From the IMG/VR virus record IMGVR_UViG_2531839476_000018: a stretch of 42,961 bases of DNA; one strand, 5' to 3'. Numbering within the stretch: position 1 is the first letter of the stretch; the number at the start of each line of letters is the position of its first letter. A program made the translations under genes and the position numbers. This DNA is from a virus. Taxonomy: Duplodnaviria > Heunggongvirae > Uroviricota > Caudoviricetes. The notes below the pieces were generated by a model that was not told the origin of the DNA, searched no databases, and saw nothing but the letters and a program-made list of their open reading frames with translations. This document shows positions 29,393-34,976 of this stretch, one piece after another.

Positions 29393-29533
29393 ATTTAAGT
29401 CTCCACTTTCGTCTATAGCGCAAATTTATACGAAAACGGATTATTCAGCAATACGGCAATTCTATATCATCCTGTATTAAAATATCCGATAACGCATAAT
29501 CACCGTCCCTGTATACAACATGGATGAATCCAA
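29393..29533. promoter_or_regulatory. Immunity switch region (divergent cI / cro promoters and operators); individual operators not resolved
   Basis: 141-bp AT-rich intergenic region between divergent repressor genes; candidate promoter toward cro (ATTGCT-16-TATAAA) and CATAAT 24 bp upstream of the cI start. Confidence 0.5.
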
Positions 29534-30208
29534 ATGATTGATACTACCGATATCCTTTCTCAAAACATCAAGTACCTGATGGACAAAACCAAGATAAGCT
29601 CGATAACTGAGCTGGCACGTCGGTTACAGCTGAACCAACCAACGCTACACAGGCTGGTATCAGGAGAGGTGAAAGATCCGAAATACGCAACGTTAAAGCA
29701 GATCGCCGACTACTTCCACGTGTCACCAATAGACCTGGCAGAAAGGAGCCTTCAAGAAATGGAGAAAGAGGACGCGACAGGTATAAAAACGTATATTTCT
29801 CTTAGGTTTAATAAAGTACCTGTTTTGGGAAACACTCAGCTAGGCGTTGGAGGACTTTGGAGCGACACCCAATATTCAGTAGGTAGCAGTGATGGTTTCA
29901 TATACTGGCCGACAAAGGATGAAGATGCATACGCCCTGAAATGTGTTGGTGATTCAATGATGCCTAGAATCAAAGAGGGTGAGTTCGTAATCGTCGAACC
30001 CAACCACGACTACACTCCTGGTGATGAAGTACTTGTGGTTACCCGGGACGGTGAGGTCATGGTTAAAACCTTCTTGTTCGAACGCGATGGCCTGTTCCAT
30101 CTAATGTCTGTAAATGAAGATCATCCACCAGTCAGAGTACCACGCGAAAACATTGAAAAAATCCATTACGTGGCGGGGATCGCCAAATCCGCGCTACGCA
30201 TGTACTAA
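29534..30208 (+). CDS. cI: CI-type repressor (HTH plus LexA-like S24 autopeptidase domain)
   Basis: 224 aa; N-terminal HTH; C-terminal domain with GDSMMP (catalytic Ser) and a downstream Lys (EVMVKTF), as in lambda cI / LexA. Confidence 0.85.
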   Translation: MIDTTDILSQNIKYLMDKTKISSITELARRLQLNQPTLHRLVSGEVKDPKYATLKQIADYFHVSPIDLAERSLQEMEKEDATGIKTYISLRFNKVPVLGNTQLGVGGLWSDTQYSVGSSDGFIYWPTKDEDAYALKCVGDSMMPRIKEGEFVIVEPNHDYTPGDEVLVVTRDGEVMVKTFLFERDGLFHLMSVNEDHPPVRVPRENIEKIHYVAGIAKSALRMY

Positions 30209-30239
30209 CCTTTACAGTCTGATAACTTACCTCTGATCA

Positions 30240-30271
30240 AACCGCTCTCCACAAGGGCGGTTTTCTTATTT
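30240..30271 (+). terminator. Possible terminator after cI
   Basis: aaccgc ... gcggtt stem with a long loop, followed by TTTCTTATTT. Confidence 0.35.
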
Positions 30272-30292: not shown

Positions 30293-30321
30293 TTGACACA
30301 AAATCCCATAACGCATATAAA
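30293..30321 (+). promoter_or_regulatory. Near-consensus sigma-70 promoter (pL-like), TTGACA-17 bp-TATAAA
   Basis: TTGACA at 30293-30298, 17-bp spacer, TATAAA at 30316-30321; directed away from cI into the early-left region. Confidence 0.6.
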
Positions 30322-30356
30322 TACGATACCGCATAATTAATGCATTTTCTAATACC

Positions 30357-30369
30357 AGCTCTTTAACAA
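30357..30369 (+). promoter_or_regulatory. boxA-like element (AGCTCTTTAACAA), candidate nut / antitermination site
   Basis: 12 of 13 match to the rrn boxA consensus TGCTCTTTAACAA (lambda nut boxA is CGCTCTTA); about 30 nt downstream of the predicted start site. Confidence 0.45.
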
Positions 30370-30514
30370 ACAGAACCGCGTGACAGGTAAGCCGCAGTGC
30401 TCCTGGCAAAACGAAATAGCACCCGATGGGATCGAGGTAAGCGCCGAGTCCGTATGCGTACGGTAAGCGTAGAGGACAACACCGCGACGAACTGATAAGT
30501 CACGCAAGTTGAAA

Positions 30515-30532
30515 CGCCCCGATGATGGGGCG
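30515..30532 (-). terminator. Hairpin cgcccc-gatgat-ggggcg; possible terminator for the convergent 172-aa gene, or a boxB-like stem-loop of the pL leader
   Basis: Perfect 6-bp GC stem; on the minus strand it is followed by TTTCAACTT (moderate T-tract). Confidence 0.3.
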
Positions 30533-30635
30533 CTTAGTTCCTTTAACTCTGGGTGACCGGAAGGGTACCCATGCTTAAAGAAATTACTGGTTGTAAGGAT
30601 CGTAATCCGTGATTGCCTTCCCCGGATTTTCATCT

Positions 30636-31154
30636 TCAGAAGGCAGTCGGGCCTCTAAAGCATTTCGGGTTGAACAGATAGGAAGCCCTACAGTACGAAC
30701 AAACCATATTAACGACTCGCCCAAGGCCTGGCTTAGTAACCAGACCTTCCGCTTGCAATATAGATTTTCTCTTTTGCTCGTAGCAATTGGGACAAATATA
30801 AACCGGAGATTGGTCAGCATCTGCAGAAAGCTTGCTGCGATAGACCAGAGTACCCCGCATAGGCTGGTAAAGTTCATAGCTCGCCGCTTCAGCGGCCCAG
30901 TTCTCTTGCTTTACTTTCTCATTTTCCAGTTCAACAATTTTCTCCTTAGCCGCAATCAGCAGCTCCTGAAGCGACATTTGCTGCATCTGAACATCCATTA
31001 GCTTATCGAGTAAGATGTGCGTCTTCTCTTTAACTGCATAGTCGACAGTCAGATTCTGAATCTCTCTTGCTGCTCCAACCGCGCTTTTAATTGCTCCTCC
31101 CACACCGGATAACGATTCAGTTATCCGGGAAAGAATTCCTTTTTCTTCAGACAT
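30636..31154 (-). CDS. Hypothetical coiled-coil protein with a C-terminal zinc ribbon; cargo gene convergent with cI
   Basis: 172 aa; helical N-terminal two-thirds (…LQELLIAAKEKIVELENEKVKQENWAAEAAS…) and CPNCYEQ…CSYCRAS near the C-terminus; has its own upstream region with direct repeats. Confidence 0.55.
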   Translation of the reverse strand: MSEEKGILSRITESLSGVGGAIKSAVGAAREIQNLTVDYAVKEKTHILLDKLMDVQMQQMSLQELLIAAKEKIVELENEKVKQENWAAEAASYELYQPMRGTLVYRSKLSADADQSPVYICPNCYEQKRKSILQAEGLVTKPGLGRVVNMVCSYCRASYLFNPKCFRGPTAF

Positions 31155-31164
31155 ATCTAATCTC

Positions 31165-31220
31165 TCTCAAACTGTAGGGGTGAAGAGATATTAGACGATT
31201 TCTCACTGTAGGGGTACAAG
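31165..31220. repeat. Direct repeats (core ACTGTAGGGGT twice, 34 bp apart) in the putative promoter of the 172-aa gene
   Basis: actgtaggggt at 31171-31181 and 31205-31215, each preceded by tctc(a); candidate regulator binding sites. Confidence 0.4.
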
Positions 31221-31293
31221 GAGAACCACCTCGCCTGATGTGGTTAAAAGCAGGCACTCGATGATATCCATGTAATTGCTGTGTGTAGTCTTT

Positions 31294-31320
31294 GCCCGCC
31301 GCAAGTGACGGGCTTTTTTA
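31294..31320 (+). terminator. Intrinsic terminator (tL1-like) on the plus strand upstream of the early-left genes
   Basis: gcccg-ccgcaagtga-cgggc followed by TTTTTTAT. Confidence 0.55.
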
Positions 31321-31345
31321 TGTCTGAAAGCGCACTCGCAACAGC

Positions 31346-31528
31346 GTGCTCCCCGATATGAAAAAAGGAATACAACCGATGAAACCTGAACACATCCATC
31401 GACTGACGGGGCGCGATGTTCTCCGTTATCGCCGTAAAAACTTCGATTTGATGACCGGTCTGGCCGTTGCCACTGCGCTCGGTCTGATCATCACTTTCAT
31501 TCTCCTTGTAGCGAGGACCACAGTATGA
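31346..31528 (+). CDS. Small membrane protein with an arginine-rich N-terminus
   Basis: 60 aa: basic segment RLTGRDVLRYRRKNF followed by one transmembrane helix (LAVATALGLIITFILLV). Confidence 0.4.
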   Translation: MLPDMKKGIQPMKPEHIHRLTGRDVLRYRRKNFDLMTGLAVATALGLIITFILLVARTTV

Positions 31529-32427
31529 GTTTAGAAACCAGTCTAGAACTTAATAATCAACTTCTGGCACAACATAATGCGCTGCTTGAACGTCTTATCC
31601 GCACAATGGCATCAGGTATTGTTATGCATCCTGACACGATTTCACGAGTGCAGGAATGTCGGGATACAGCAACTGAAACTGAAAATATGTCAGCGGCAAT
31701 GACACTGGATGATCTGGAGTTCAGCGACGTTATCGCACTGGCTGGTTTCTACCCGGTAGCCACCCCTATCACAGAAGATATGCTGCAACGTGCTGTTGCC
31801 TACCGTGATGCTGAAGGCGATAAACGAGTAGTTCAGATTGATGCTCTCGACAGCGCATTGCAGGGCGTCAAACGAGCCAGGGCGCTGCTTAAACCTGCTC
31901 TCCTGGACCTGTCCCGTAACATCCTTAAGTTCTGGGACGACCTGCCAACCATCGGCGAGCGACGTGCTTTTGCCGAGCAGCTACTTGATGCACCTGCAGA
32001 TGGGCGTGATGAAGTTAAGCCGAAAAAGGCCAGTAACAAAGATGGAGAACGCACGGGGCCGTTTTACGTCAAAAATGTATCCGGCACAGCAGCCAGTGAA
32101 CTCCACACCTTACGCAAGTTGAACGAGATGCTTAAAAAAGGCCATATCGAGATCAACCGTGTTGAGTACCTTCAGCTGCAGGAAGAATTTGCACGCAGAG
32201 ACGCAGCAAATTCCAGCCAGAATAATGACGCCAAAGATGACCATACAATTGATTTCGCGGCACTACGCAAACAAGCTGAAGGGTTGATCCTCCAGTTAGC
32301 AAAAGGGGGCTACCGGGCAGAAGCTATTGCAATTCTGGAAAAACAGGGAGCCAGGAAACTTGGTGAAGTAACGGATGAAAATCTCGCTGAAGTAATCACC
32401 CTGGCTGAAAAAGCACTGGAGGGTTAA
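31525..32427 (+). CDS. Hypothetical protein (early-left operon)
   Basis: 300-aa ORF, start overlapping the upstream stop; no family recognised. Confidence 0.55.
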
Positions 32428-34347: not shown

Positions 34348-34542
34348 TCACTCAGGAATCTTAATCTTTCTCAATTCTTTATTTAGTTCACAGATCTTTT
34401 TCTTAGACGGGAAAGTATCATACATCCAAAAACCAACAGTCTCTAAAACTATTATCATAACCATATACACAAGATAATTTAAAAGGCCTTCATTTTGCCC
34501 TATGGAAATAATGCAGATAATAGAAAAAAGGGTAAACAGCAC
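34348..34542 (-). CDS. AT-rich island 1, distal ORF (membrane protein fragment); possibly the frameshifted C-terminal part of one gene
   Basis: 64-aa hydrophobic ORF overlapping the upstream ORF in another frame across an A6/T6 homopolymer (34524-34529). Confidence 0.4.
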   Translation of the reverse strand: MLFTLFSIICIISIGQNEGLLNYLVYMVMIIVLETVGFWMYDTFPSKKKICELNKELRKIKIPE

Positions 34543-34976
34543 AAAACACAGAAAGGAAAACAGACGACTAATAATAAATAAAAAACCTGAAAAATCAACA
34601 TTAATAAAAACACTCCGTTATCTTTCTCTATATAATTCTGAAGCTTAATCAACTGATTTATATACTGTCTTTTTTCTAATCTATTGCAAATGTAAATAAC
34701 ATCTCTTCGGTTATAAGATGATTGCAATTTCAGCGCATCACGAATAATTTTATCATTTATTCTTTTTTCTATGGCACTCTTATCCTCCTCATCCAGATAA
34801 CGTTCATACTTAACTAAATATAAAATTAACTTCTTAACATATTTAGGCTCTTTATACTTATAATTAAAAATGATCTTTCTTATCCAGACTCCCATAACAA
34901 TCAAACATGAAAAAATATATCCAGCTATTTTCTCCAGATGCTCTGTATGGTCAATCAAGTATTGGATCATATGCAT
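34500..34976 (-). CDS. AT-rich island 1, proximal ORF: membrane protein of unknown function (cargo, antisense to the early operon)
   Basis: 158 aa with an N-terminal TM helix, a charged middle and a hydrophobic C-terminus; flanking intergenic DNA and the gene are visibly more AT-rich than neighbouring genes. Confidence 0.5.
   Translation of the reverse strand: MHMIQYLIDHTEHLEKIAGYIFSCLIVMGVWIRKIIFNYKYKEPKYVKKLILYLVKYERYLDEEDKSAIEKRINDKIIRDALKLQSSYNRRDVIYICNRLEKRQYINQLIKLQNYIEKDNGVFLLMLIFQVFYLLLVVCFPFCVLCCLPFFLLSALFP

What the first reader, a model, noticed from the sequence alone, without database searches (positions are those of the whole stretch)
30636..31290. Coiled-coil zinc-ribbon protein convergent with cI, with direct-repeat motifs in its promoter region
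A 172-aa gene is transcribed toward cI from its own upstream region, which contains two copies of ACTGTAGGGGT (31171-31181 and 31205-31215) overlapping the expected -35/-10 positions. The protein combines a long coiled coil with a C-terminal CxxC…CxxC ribbon. The position, in the immunity region antisense to the pL-like transcript, is where lambdoid phages carry exclusion or defence genes (rex, sieB-like). Its function is unrecognised.
Basis: partly seen in the sequence, partly recalled or inferred. Interest (0 to 1): 0.55.

Follow-up and report, generated by a model that had tools for sequence, protein, structure and literature searches.

The report
Prophage Rip1 pore-forming defence gene
This gene is a member of the recently characterised Rip1 family of prophage anti-phage proteins.

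Summary
The 172-aa ORF (30636-31154, minus strand) is real. It is a clear homologue of Rip1 ("ring interacting pore 1"). It is 52% identical to phage HK446 Rip1, whose cryo-EM structure with T6 small terminase is PDB 9oox (phmmer E=5e-47). An AlphaFold model of the near-identical intact allele superposes on that structure.

Rip1 (Patel et al., Nature 2026, read only through a review) is a prophage defence protein. It senses ring-shaped portal or small-terminase oligomers of an invading phage and forms a membrane pore.

The window copy carries a 1-nt insertion that removes a 27-residue C-terminal tail. The core is intact, and the same allele occurs in three other E. coli genomes.

Both ACTGTAGGGGT copies are real. 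They belong to a ~95-nt cassette shared with the region upstream of sieB in P22 and lambda and upstream of rip1/hkaP in HK446 and HK620. Aligned to the P22 sieB promoter annotation, the upstream copy overlaps -35. The downstream copy is the first 11 nt of the transcript, not -10.

A consensus-like, operator-flanked pL-type promoter downstream of cI reads antisense through the gene.

Verdict: a new member of a known family. Modest interest.

The parts
30636..31154 (-). rip1 homologue, 172-aa frameshift-truncated allele. It has an N-terminal amphipathic Gly/Ala-rich helix, a long second helix, and a C-terminal beta domain with CxxC...CxxC.
   Evidence: ORF list. phmmer to PDB 9oox_L Rip1, E=4.7e-47. 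phrog_1244, E=1.8e-38. Hydrophobic moment and Cys positions.
30667..30670 (-). Site of the 1-nt insertion (GGG on the + strand versus GG in relatives) that shifts the frame after codon 162.
   Evidence: Alignment with phage 606R2. The same 519-nt allele is annotated in E. coli DEC5E, EPSSH018 and CAU16175.
30584..30666 (-). Out-of-frame remnant of the ancestral C-terminal tail (..RNALEARLPSEDENPGKAITDYDPYNQ) and its stop codon.
   Evidence: The ORF 30584..30877 (minus) ends with this peptide. The tail is present in P0001, P0003 and P0011.
30505..30535 (-). Intrinsic terminator of the rip1 transcript (GCGCCCCAUCAUCGGGGCGUUUCAACUU).
   Evidence: RNA fold of 30495-30590 (minus): -33.6 kcal/mol, z=-3.6. 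A compensatory A/G change in the loop region in 606R2 keeps the hairpin.
31164..31257 (-). Conserved sieB-type promoter cassette, about 83% identical to P22, lambda, HK620 and HK446.
   Evidence: blastn against phages and E. coli genomes. Alignments A5 and A6.
31205..31215 (-). Upstream copy of ACCCCTACAGT (minus-strand reading). It overlaps the -35 hexamer TGTACC (31213-31218).
   Evidence: Position derived by alignment to the P22 sieB promoter 29690-29720.
31188..31193 (-). -10 hexamer TAATAT.
   Evidence: It aligns with P22 TAAACT. In 54 distinct cassettes the hexamer at this position is always TAnnnT.
31171..31181 (-). Downstream copy of ACCCCTACAGT. The predicted transcription start is its first A (31181), giving a 27-nt 5' UTR.
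   Evidence: The P22 'sieB RNA start site' at 29727 is the A of the homologous ACCCCTACAG.
31224..31245 (.). Conserved hairpin AACCAC-N10-GTGGTT upstream of the promoter. Its role is unknown.
   Evidence: Invariant in alignment A6. Variants such as AGCCAC and CACCAC appear among the distinct cassette sequences printed.
30293..30334 (+). pL-like early promoter: TTGACA (30293-30298), 17-nt spacer, TATAAA (30316-30321). It carries two operator-like 14-mers (30303-30316 and 30321-30334). Its transcript runs antisense through rip1.
   Evidence: Sequence. 18-nt repeat family shared with the cI-cro intergenic region. 14-mer scan.
31271..31319 (+). RprA-like 3' module plus an intrinsic terminator on the pL-sense strand, between the rip1 cassette and the first early-left ORF (31379).
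   Evidence: Rfam RF00034, 47.5 bits, below the gathering score of 70. 24 nt identical to K-12 rprA.

Best explanation
The gene encodes a Rip1-family abortive-infection protein.

Proposed mechanism, inferred from the characterised homologues:
1. In the lysogen the gene is transcribed at a low constitutive level from a sieB-type promoter (TGTACC, 19-nt spacer, TAATAT). The mRNA starts at the A of the downstream ACCCCTACAGT repeat.
2. The protein alone is harmless.
3. When a superinfecting phage reaches late gene expression, its ring-shaped small terminase or portal oligomer is bound by the C-terminal four-cysteine beta domain.
4. About twelve Rip1 monomers assemble around the ring, and their N-terminal amphipathic helices form a pore in the inner membrane.
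5. The cell is killed before progeny mature.

Shown here:
- Family membership by sequence and predicted fold.
- The amphipathic N-terminus and the conserved cysteines.
- Homology of the promoter cassette to P22 sieB.
- The antisense arrangement relative to an operator-controlled pL-like promoter.

My own inferences:
- Activity and trigger specificity of this particular, C-terminally truncated allele.
- That antisense embedding in the lytic operon shuts rip1 off when the resident prophage itself is induced. Here and in HK620/HK446 that operon is pL. In D3112/DMS3 it is the late terminase operon.

The two repeats are part of the promoter cassette and do not depend on the cargo. The same cassette drives unrelated SieB proteins, so the repeats are not Rip1-specific operators.
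For: Family membership:
- PHROG 1244, E=1.8e-38.
- tblastn: 52% identity over 97% of the protein to HK446_037. Weaker hits to HK620 hkaP and D3112 orf25 / DMS3-25.
- A profile of 64 family members hits PDB 9oox 'ring interacting pore 1 (Rip1)' at E=2.9e-52. The window protein alone gives E=4.7e-47 over residues 3-166.
- The AlphaFold2 model (pLDDT 82.5) of the 97%-identical intact allele matches 9oox_M, 'HK446 Rip1 in complex with T6 small terminase'. Foldseek E=3.8e-10, TM 0.87 normalised to the target, rmsd 2.4 A.
- Family-invariant residues are W86, Y93, Y105, C121, L133, Q134 and C152, with C124 and C155 at >=90%. All are retained in the window protein.
- Residues about 7-35 have the highest hydrophobic moment in the protein (0.36-0.44), and there is no transmembrane segment.

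Mechanism of Rip1, as summarised in PMC13434031:
- It is encoded between the small and large terminase genes of a P. aeruginosa prophage.
- It is not toxic alone.
- Escapers map to portal (Pseudomonas phages) or small terminase (E. coli phages).
- An 11-mer small-terminase ring is surrounded by 12 Rip1 monomers.
- The N-terminal amphipathic helix forms the pore and the C-terminal half contacts the ring. Liposome dye release was shown.
- D3112 orf25 and DMS3-25 sit exactly at that position.

Promoter.

pL-like antisense promoter.

The gene has its own terminator.

The truncated allele is inherited. It is present in three further complete genomes that carry different neighbouring modules.
Against: - No functional data exist for this protein. 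It is only 52% identical to the characterised HK446 protein.
- The window allele has lost a 27-residue tail whose TDYDPY motif is conserved in the three homologues that have such a tail and are 50-97% identical (P0001, P0003, P0011). Loss of activity or altered regulation cannot be excluded.
- The primary Rip1 paper could not be read. The mechanism is taken from a review and from PDB titles.
- The -35 element is poor (TGTACC with a 19-nt spacer), and the consensus scan found no promoter here. Expression rests on homology to the P22 annotation.
- Closer relatives of this phage lineage (L007-L009) carry rip1 without the repeat cassette, so the cassette is not required for the gene.
Confidence: 0.8

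Rival explanations
1. The window copy is a decaying pseudogene. The frameshift that removes the conserved C-terminal tail inactivates the protein, so nothing functional is encoded here.
For: - A 1-nt insertion in a short homopolymer changes the last 27 residues.
- The lost tail carries a TDYDPY motif conserved in the three homologues that have such a tail, P0001, P0003 and P0011.
- A second minus-strand gene nearby (34348-34976) is also split by a homopolymer indel relative to 606R2.
Against: - HK446 Rip1 is active and structurally characterised. It is 164 aa and ends at the same point as the truncated protein. Most family members are 150-175 aa and have no tail.
- All invariant residues lie upstream of the frameshift.
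- The 172-aa allele is kept as an intact ORF in three other genomes with different flanking modules. One of them carries a further amino-acid variant.
Confidence: 0.12
2. The protein is a zinc-ribbon DNA-binding regulator that binds the two direct repeats and autoregulates, or regulates the divergent early-left operon.
For: - It has a four-cysteine ribbon-like domain.
- Two exact 11-nt direct repeats flank its own core promoter.
Against: - The identical repeat cassette precedes unrelated membrane proteins (P22-, lambda- and O157-type SieB and others) in about 90 of 119 sampled cassettes. The repeats therefore cannot be operators specific to this protein.
- Relatives L007-L009 have rip1 without the repeats.
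- In the solved homologue the C-terminal domain contacts a protein ring, not DNA.
- There is no Pfam DNA-binding hit.
Confidence: 0.02
3. The gene acts like SieB or Rex: a different, membrane-resident exclusion mechanism that is not triggered by ring-shaped packaging proteins.
For: - It occupies the same slot, has the same promoter cassette and has the same antisense orientation as sieB.
- HK620 hkaP was annotated as a 'putative superinfection exclusion protein' on positional grounds.
Against: - There is no sequence similarity to SieB. Downstream ORFs classified as Rip1-type and SieB-type are separate groups in blastp.
- There is no transmembrane segment; the maximum Kyte-Doolittle 19-residue mean is 0.86.
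- There is strong full-length homology to Rip1.
Confidence: 0.04

Closest known systems
Rip1 of Escherichia phage HK446 (HK446_037; PDB 9oox, complex with T6 small terminase; Patel et al. 2026, Nature 651:1060)
   Same: - 52% identity over 97% of the protein.
- The same helix-helix-beta-domain fold by prediction.
- The same four cysteines and an N-terminal Gly/Ala-rich amphipathic helix.
- The same upstream promoter cassette with both ACCCCTACAG repeats.
- Antisense orientation inside the pL operon.
   Different: - The host phage is not a classical lambdoid. It carries PrimPol/DUF5906, DUF2800, Enc34-type SSB and DNA polymerase A modules.
- The lineage normally carries a 27-residue C-terminal extension, which is lost here by frameshift.
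- Trigger specificity is unknown.
Rip1 of Pseudomonas aeruginosa Mu-like prophages (D3112 orf25 / DMS3-25 position)
   Same: - The same family: tblastn E about 1e-9, 32% identity.
- Encoded on the strand opposite to a lytic operon of a prophage.
- A single-protein sensor and effector.
   Different: - It lies between the small and large terminase genes rather than in the immunity region.
- Escapers are reported in portal rather than small terminase.
- It has no sieB-type cassette.
HkaP of phages HK620, HK630 and HK629
   Same: - The same family (28% identity).
- The same cassette and the same slot between cIII and N.
   Different: It belongs to a more distant subfamily. It was never characterised, only annotated as a 'putative superinfection exclusion protein'.
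SieB of P22 and lambda
   Same: - A homologous promoter cassette, including both repeats, the -10 position and the mapped RNA start.
- The same antisense-in-pL slot.
- Prophage-expressed abortive exclusion (established knowledge: Ranade & Poteete 1993, recalled from memory).
   Different: - SieB is an unrelated membrane protein with a different mechanism.
- P22 escapes its own SieB through Esc and the sas antisense RNA (recalled from memory). No equivalent was identified here.
RexAB of lambda
   Same: Immunity-region abortive-infection genes expressed in the lysogen that act at the membrane.
   Different: Rex is a two-protein system co-transcribed with cI. There is no homology.

Membership tests
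Rip1 (ring interacting pore 1) | Full-length sequence homology to an experimentally characterised Rip1 | tested here: met
   phmmer versus PDB 9oox_L gives E=4.7e-47 over residues 3-166. The family profile gives E=2.9e-52. 52% identity to HK446_037.
Rip1 (ring interacting pore 1) | Fold: two long N-terminal helices followed by a small beta domain, superposable on the solved structure | tested here: met
   The AF2 model of the intact allele P0001 (97% identical to the window protein) has pLDDT 82.5. Foldseek to 9oox_M gives E=3.8e-10, TM 0.87 normalised to the target and rmsd 2.4 A. There is no other hit below E=0.1.
Rip1 (ring interacting pore 1) | N-terminal amphipathic helix, the pore-forming part | tested here: met
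   Residues 7-35 have a hydrophobic moment of 0.36-0.44, the highest in the protein. The segment is Gly/Ala/Ser-rich with no transmembrane segment. The model predicts a helix at 2-34.
Rip1 (ring interacting pore 1) | Conserved C-terminal CxxC...CxxC and the KSILQ / YR motifs | tested here: met
   C121 and C152 are invariant. C124, C155 and K130-S131-I132 are >=90% conserved. L133-Q134 are invariant, as is Y105, in 64 sequences. All are present in the window protein.
Rip1 (ring interacting pore 1) | Prophage-borne, single gene, own promoter, encoded opposite to a lytic operon | tested here: met
Rip1 (ring interacting pore 1) | Anti-phage activity, non-toxic alone, activated by oligomeric portal or small-terminase rings, 12-mer pore | not testable with these tools
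   Known for the homologues only, from a review and the PDB title.
SieB (superinfection exclusion B) | Sequence similarity to P22 or lambda SieB, and transmembrane segments | tested here: not met
   No Pfam SieB hit at E<=1. Rip1-type and SieB-type cargo form separate blastp classes. No hydrophobic segment.
SieB (superinfection exclusion B) | sieB promoter cassette and the slot antisense to pL | tested here: met
   Alignment to the annotated P22 promoter and RNA start. The region upstream of lambda sieB also aligns.
RprA sRNA (Rfam RF00034), for the element at 31210-31323 | Score at or above the Rfam gathering threshold over the whole model | tested here: not met
   47.5 bits against a gathering score of 70. 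Only the 3' 50 nt align convincingly. 24 nt are identical to K-12 rprA. The rip1-less relative scores 52.7 bits.
Known defence systems in PADLOC-DB v2 (2023) | HMM hit | tested here: not met
   0 families at E<=1. That database predates Rip1.

The most novel reading that the evidence does not exclude
The ~95-nt cassette consists of a hairpin, TACCCCTACAG, 24 nt containing a TAnnnT -10, and ACCCCTACAG at +1. It may be a portable 'lysogen-on, lytic-off' expression module that lambdoid and other temperate phages reuse for unrelated abortive-infection cargo (three SieB types, three Rip1 subtypes, other small membrane proteins).

In this reading, the invariant duplicated 10-mer would be a binding site for an unidentified factor, or an RNA-level element of the antisense pL transcript. 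Together with antisense transcription from pL, it would provide the self-immunity that lets the resident prophage assemble its own terminase and portal rings without triggering Rip1.

A second, independent possibility concerns the adjacent RprA-like module. It may be released by termination of the pL transcript and act as a phage-encoded RprA 3'-half mimic on host targets.
Probability: 0.2. Interest if true: 0.5.

Novelty: new member of a known kind. Interest (0 to 1): 0.25.

Why it matters
- It assigns a function to a 'hypothetical protein' present in about 150 of 5,426 complete E. coli genomes.
- It shows Rip1 in a non-lambdoid PrimPol/PolA temperate phage lineage.
- It documents a naturally truncated allele that could help define which parts of Rip1 are dispensable.
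- The shared sieB/rip1 promoter cassette offers a simple sequence handle (TACCCCTACAG-N24-ACCCCTA) for finding further exclusion genes in prophages.
- The antisense-in-lytic-operon arrangement suggests a testable route to self-immunity.
- None of this changes the picture of how Rip1 works.

Tried and rejected
- **Pfam.** Only sub-threshold noise: CRM1 repeat, YjdM and ClpX zinc fingers.
- **PADLOC.** No hit.
- **Literature on 'HkaP'.** Only a biosensor paper that used the flanking intergenic regions as insertion sites.
- **Tab of JBD26.** Considered because of the Pseudomonas homologues. Rejected because the paper's methods concern genes 30 and 31, not the orf25 position.
- **TerI of Listeria.** Rejected as an unrelated system in a different organism.
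- **The repeats as cI/Cro operators.** Rejected. The operator-like 14-mers (ATCCGATAACGCAT type) occur at 29428, 29484, 30303 and 30321 and differ from the repeats.
- **The repeats as Rip1 autoregulatory sites.** Rejected because of cargo swapping.
- **The third, 1-mismatch copy inside the gene (30684-30694, opposite orientation).** It lies in the CxxC codons. I treated it as coincidental and did not test it.
- **The pL leader 30328-30585.** It has no Rfam hit and no unusual folding, z=-0.45.
- **The + strand RNA across the cassette.** No unusual stability, z=+0.2.
- **The frameshift as a sequencing error.** Rejected because three other assemblies share it.
- **Unavailable sources.** The primary Rip1 paper is not held. 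Searches for the sas/esc literature returned nothing usable. No literature on phage RprA-like RNAs was found.

Full report
**1. The observation**

The window contains an ATG-initiated 172-aa ORF at 30636..31154 on the minus strand. It is convergent with a 224-aa repressor at 29534..30208 that carries HTH_26 and Peptidase_S24 domains. A 66-aa Cro-like HTH gene and a PrimPol/DUF5906 replication gene diverge from the repressor on the minus strand.

ACTGTAGGGGT occurs exactly twice, at 31171 and 31205. There is also one 1-mismatch copy in inverted orientation inside the gene, at 30684.

Taken alone, the repeat is not statistically impressive. A close exact 11-mer repeat somewhere in a 43-kb window appears in about 40% of Markov-1 simulations. 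Within the 191-nt intergenic region it appears in only 0.3%. Conservation settles the matter (section 4).

**2. The ORF is a truncated allele**

The window is 98.8% identical over this region to Escherichia phage vB_EcoM-606R2 and its relatives. In those phages the gene is 570 nt and encodes 189 aa.

Alignment shows a single extra C in the window, CCC versus CC on the coding strand, at about 30667-30670. After residue 162 the window protein reads PKCFRGPTAF. Relatives continue with RNALEARLP(A/S)EDENPGKAITDYDPYNQ. That peptide is still encoded out of frame down to 30584.

The frameshift is not a sequencing artefact. The same 519-nt ORF is annotated in three complete genomes: O55:H7 DEC5E, EPSSH018 and CAU16175. 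The last two carry different genes further downstream in the early operon, and CAU16175 has a different protein accession. The other full-length hits listed have the intact length.

**3. What the protein is**

Pfam and PADLOC give nothing. PHROGs gives phrog_1244, of unknown function, at E=1.8e-38.

tblastn against phage genomes finds:
- 52-53% identity to a gene of HK446, ev099 and vB_EcoP-720R6;
- about 28% identity to hkaP of HK620, HK630 and HK629;
- about 32% identity to orf25 of Pseudomonas phages D3112, DMS3 and MP38.

A profile search of the large protein database recovers 246 mostly unnamed proteobacterial proteins of 150-190 aa.

A 64-sequence profile hits one solved structure, PDB 9oox 'ring interacting pore 1 (Rip1)', at E=2.9e-52. 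The window protein alone gives E=4.7e-47.

An AlphaFold2 model of the intact allele (pLDDT 82.5) has helices at 2-34 and 39-90 followed by a five-strand beta domain. It matches 9oox_M, 'Cryo-EM structure of the Escherichia phage HK446 Rip1 in complex with the Enterobacteria phage T6 small terminase'. TM is 0.87 normalised to the target and rmsd is 2.4 A. No other hit falls below E=0.1.

The family-invariant residues (W86, Y93, Y105, C121, L133, Q134, C152) and the near-invariant C124 and C155 all precede the frameshift. Residues 7-35 form the most amphipathic stretch of the protein, and there is no transmembrane segment.

**4. What Rip1 does**

This comes from the literature, not from tests here. 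The primary paper is Patel et al. 2026, Nature 651:1060, and it is not held. A 2026 review (PMC13434031) summarises it as follows:
- Rip1 is encoded between the small and large terminase genes of a P. aeruginosa prophage.
- It protects against superinfection and is not toxic alone.
- Infected cells round up.
- Escapers map to portal (Pseudomonas phages) or small terminase (E. coli phages).
- Cryo-EM shows an 11-mer small-terminase ring surrounded by 12 Rip1 monomers.
- The N-terminal amphipathic helices form a pore and the C-terminal halves contact the ring.
- The complex releases dye from liposomes.
- Homologues are widespread in proteobacterial prophages.

D3112 orf25 and DMS3-25 lie exactly between the DNA-binding/small-terminase-like gene and the large terminase, on the opposite strand. 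Two further papers cite Rip1 as a sensor of the small terminase.

**5. The promoter region**

A blastn search with 31195-31330 unexpectedly matched 3,116 of 5,426 E. coli genomes over positions 31196-31257. The matches lie just upstream of sieB in lambda and in O157 lambdoid prophages.

In the phage collection, the block 31164-31257 is 83-88% identical to the region immediately upstream of two kinds of gene:
- rip1/hkaP in HK446, HK620, HK630 and ev099;
- sieB in lambda, and in many Salmonella P22-like phages.

Both repeats are present in all of these, always 24 nt apart.

The curated P22 record BK000583 annotates a sieB promoter at 29690-29720 and a 'sieB RNA start site' at 29727. In alignment A6 these map as follows:
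- The P22 -35, TGTACC, corresponds to window 31213-31218, inside the upstream repeat.
- The P22 -10, TAAACT, corresponds to the window's TAATAT at 31188-31193.
- The P22 start is the A of the downstream ACCCCTACAG, which is window 31181.

This leaves a 27-nt leader before the ATG at 31154.

In 54 distinct cassettes recovered from IMG/VR, the hexamer at the -10 position is always TAnnnT: TAAACT 22, TAAAAT 15, TATAAT 8, TAATAT 6, others 3.

The simple consensus scan found no promoter here, consistent with the poor -35 and the 19-nt spacer.

**6. The cassette does not depend on its cargo**

I took the first 120 IMG/VR matches to TACCCCTACAG-N24-ACCCCTA. Of these, 119 have an ORF starting within 90 nt downstream:
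- 60 encode P22/O157-type SieB;
- 22 encode lambda-type SieB;
- 7 encode another membrane protein (MPNWIEAV...);
- 1 encodes a 105-aa membrane protein;
- 29 encode Rip1 homologues (19 HK446-type, 7 HkaP-type, 3 window-type).

The repeats are therefore not operators for Rip1 itself. Their role, and that of the invariant hairpin AACCAC-N10-GTGGTT at 31224-31245, remains unknown.

Closer relatives of this phage lineage (loci L007-L009, rip1 50-64% identical) lack the cassette and have a different upstream sequence.

**7. Context and the antisense arrangement**

Downstream of cI there is a terminator at 30239-30263. After it comes TTGACA (30293-30298), a 17-nt spacer and TATAAA (30316-30321) on the plus strand. 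This promoter is overlapped by two 14-mers, at 30303 and 30321. They resemble two sites in the cI-cro intergenic region at 29428 and 29484.

I read this as the pL-equivalent promoter. Its transcript would run antisense across rip1 and through a strong terminator at 31295-31319. It would then enter the early-left operon: a 49-aa ORF at 31379, a 300-aa protein, a DUF2800/PD-(D/E)XK protein and an Enc34-type SSB.

rip1 has its own terminator at 30505-30535.

The slot is mosaic:
- Strain A34 shares 30358-31700 at 99.85% identity but has a different cI/cro pair.
- Strain DETEC-P1056 lacks rip1 altogether. Homology resumes at 31267, and a 69-aa sense-strand ORF occupies the slot.
- L007 and L008 carry extra small genes between cI and rip1.

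In HK620 and HK446, in this phage, and in D3112/DMS3, rip1 always lies opposite to a lytic operon. I infer that lytic transcription silences rip1 when the resident prophage is induced, which would give self-immunity. This is untested.

**8. Verdict**

The protein belongs to a family whose mechanism and structure were published in 2026. It is a new, naturally truncated member of a known kind.

The points that go beyond plain annotation are:
- the shared sieB/rip1 promoter cassette with its invariant duplicated 10-mer;
- the truncated allele;
- the adjacent RprA-like module.

Noticed in passing
window 31210-31323 (+), core 31271-31319: There is an RprA-like module. Rfam RF00034 scores 47.5 bits, below the gathering score of 70. 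Twenty-four nt (AATTGCTGTGTGTAGTCTTTGCCC) are identical to the 3' half of E. coli K-12 rprA and are followed by a terminator. The module lies on the pL-sense strand, just before the first early-left ORF. It is conserved in relatives. A rip1-less relative (L014) scores 52.7 bits, and its similarity extends to an AAUCCUCUGA stretch. It could be a phage sRNA or RprA mimic, or merely a terminator.
   Followed up: partly
window 34348-34976 (-): A second AT-rich gene lies on the strand opposite to the early operon, between the SSB and DNA polymerase genes. It appears as two overlapping ORFs (158 + 64 aa, membrane-like). The cause is a 1-nt homopolymer difference (A5 versus A6, at about 34605) relative to the single 209-aa gene of phage 606R2. 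Other relatives carry an Nmad5-family gene in this slot instead.
   Followed up: partly
window 30293-30334 (+) and 29428-29497: A near-consensus pL-like promoter (TTGACA-17-TATAAA) carries two operator-like 14-mers of the type ATCCGATAACGCAT. Two related sites lie in the cI-cro intergenic region. This probably defines the immunity specificity of this phage.
   Followed up: partly
window 30384-30474 (+): GGTAAGC is repeated three times in the untranslated leader between the pL-like promoter and the rip1 terminator. There is no Rfam match and no unusual folding energy.
   Followed up: partly
IMG/VR loci L038, L063, L083, L094, L104, L117, L119: The sieB-type cassette also drives other small membrane proteins that blastp did not link to P22 SieB or to Rip1: a 177-184-aa 'MPNWIEAVIAYLKQN...' family and a 105-aa protein. 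These are candidate additional exclusion genes.
   Followed up: no
window 31224-31245: A hairpin, AACCAC-N10-GTGGTT, is invariant between P22, lambda, HK620, HK446 and this phage. It lies immediately upstream of the sieB/rip1 -35 region. Its function is unknown. A possible link to the P22 sas/esc antisense switch could not be checked, because that literature was not available.
   Followed up: no
locus L006 14052-14500 (phage 606R2), downstream of the DNA polymerase gene: A TIR-like domain protein is annotated in the near-identical phage 606R2. It is a possible further defence or counter-defence gene in the same early operon.
   Followed up: no
P0001, P0003, P0011 C-termini; window 30584-30666 out of frame: A lineage-specific C-terminal extension of Rip1 ends in a conserved (I/Q)TDYDPY motif. 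HK446 Rip1 lacks it, and the window allele has lost it. It is predicted with low confidence (pLDDT 60-65). It may be a short linear interaction motif.
   Followed up: no
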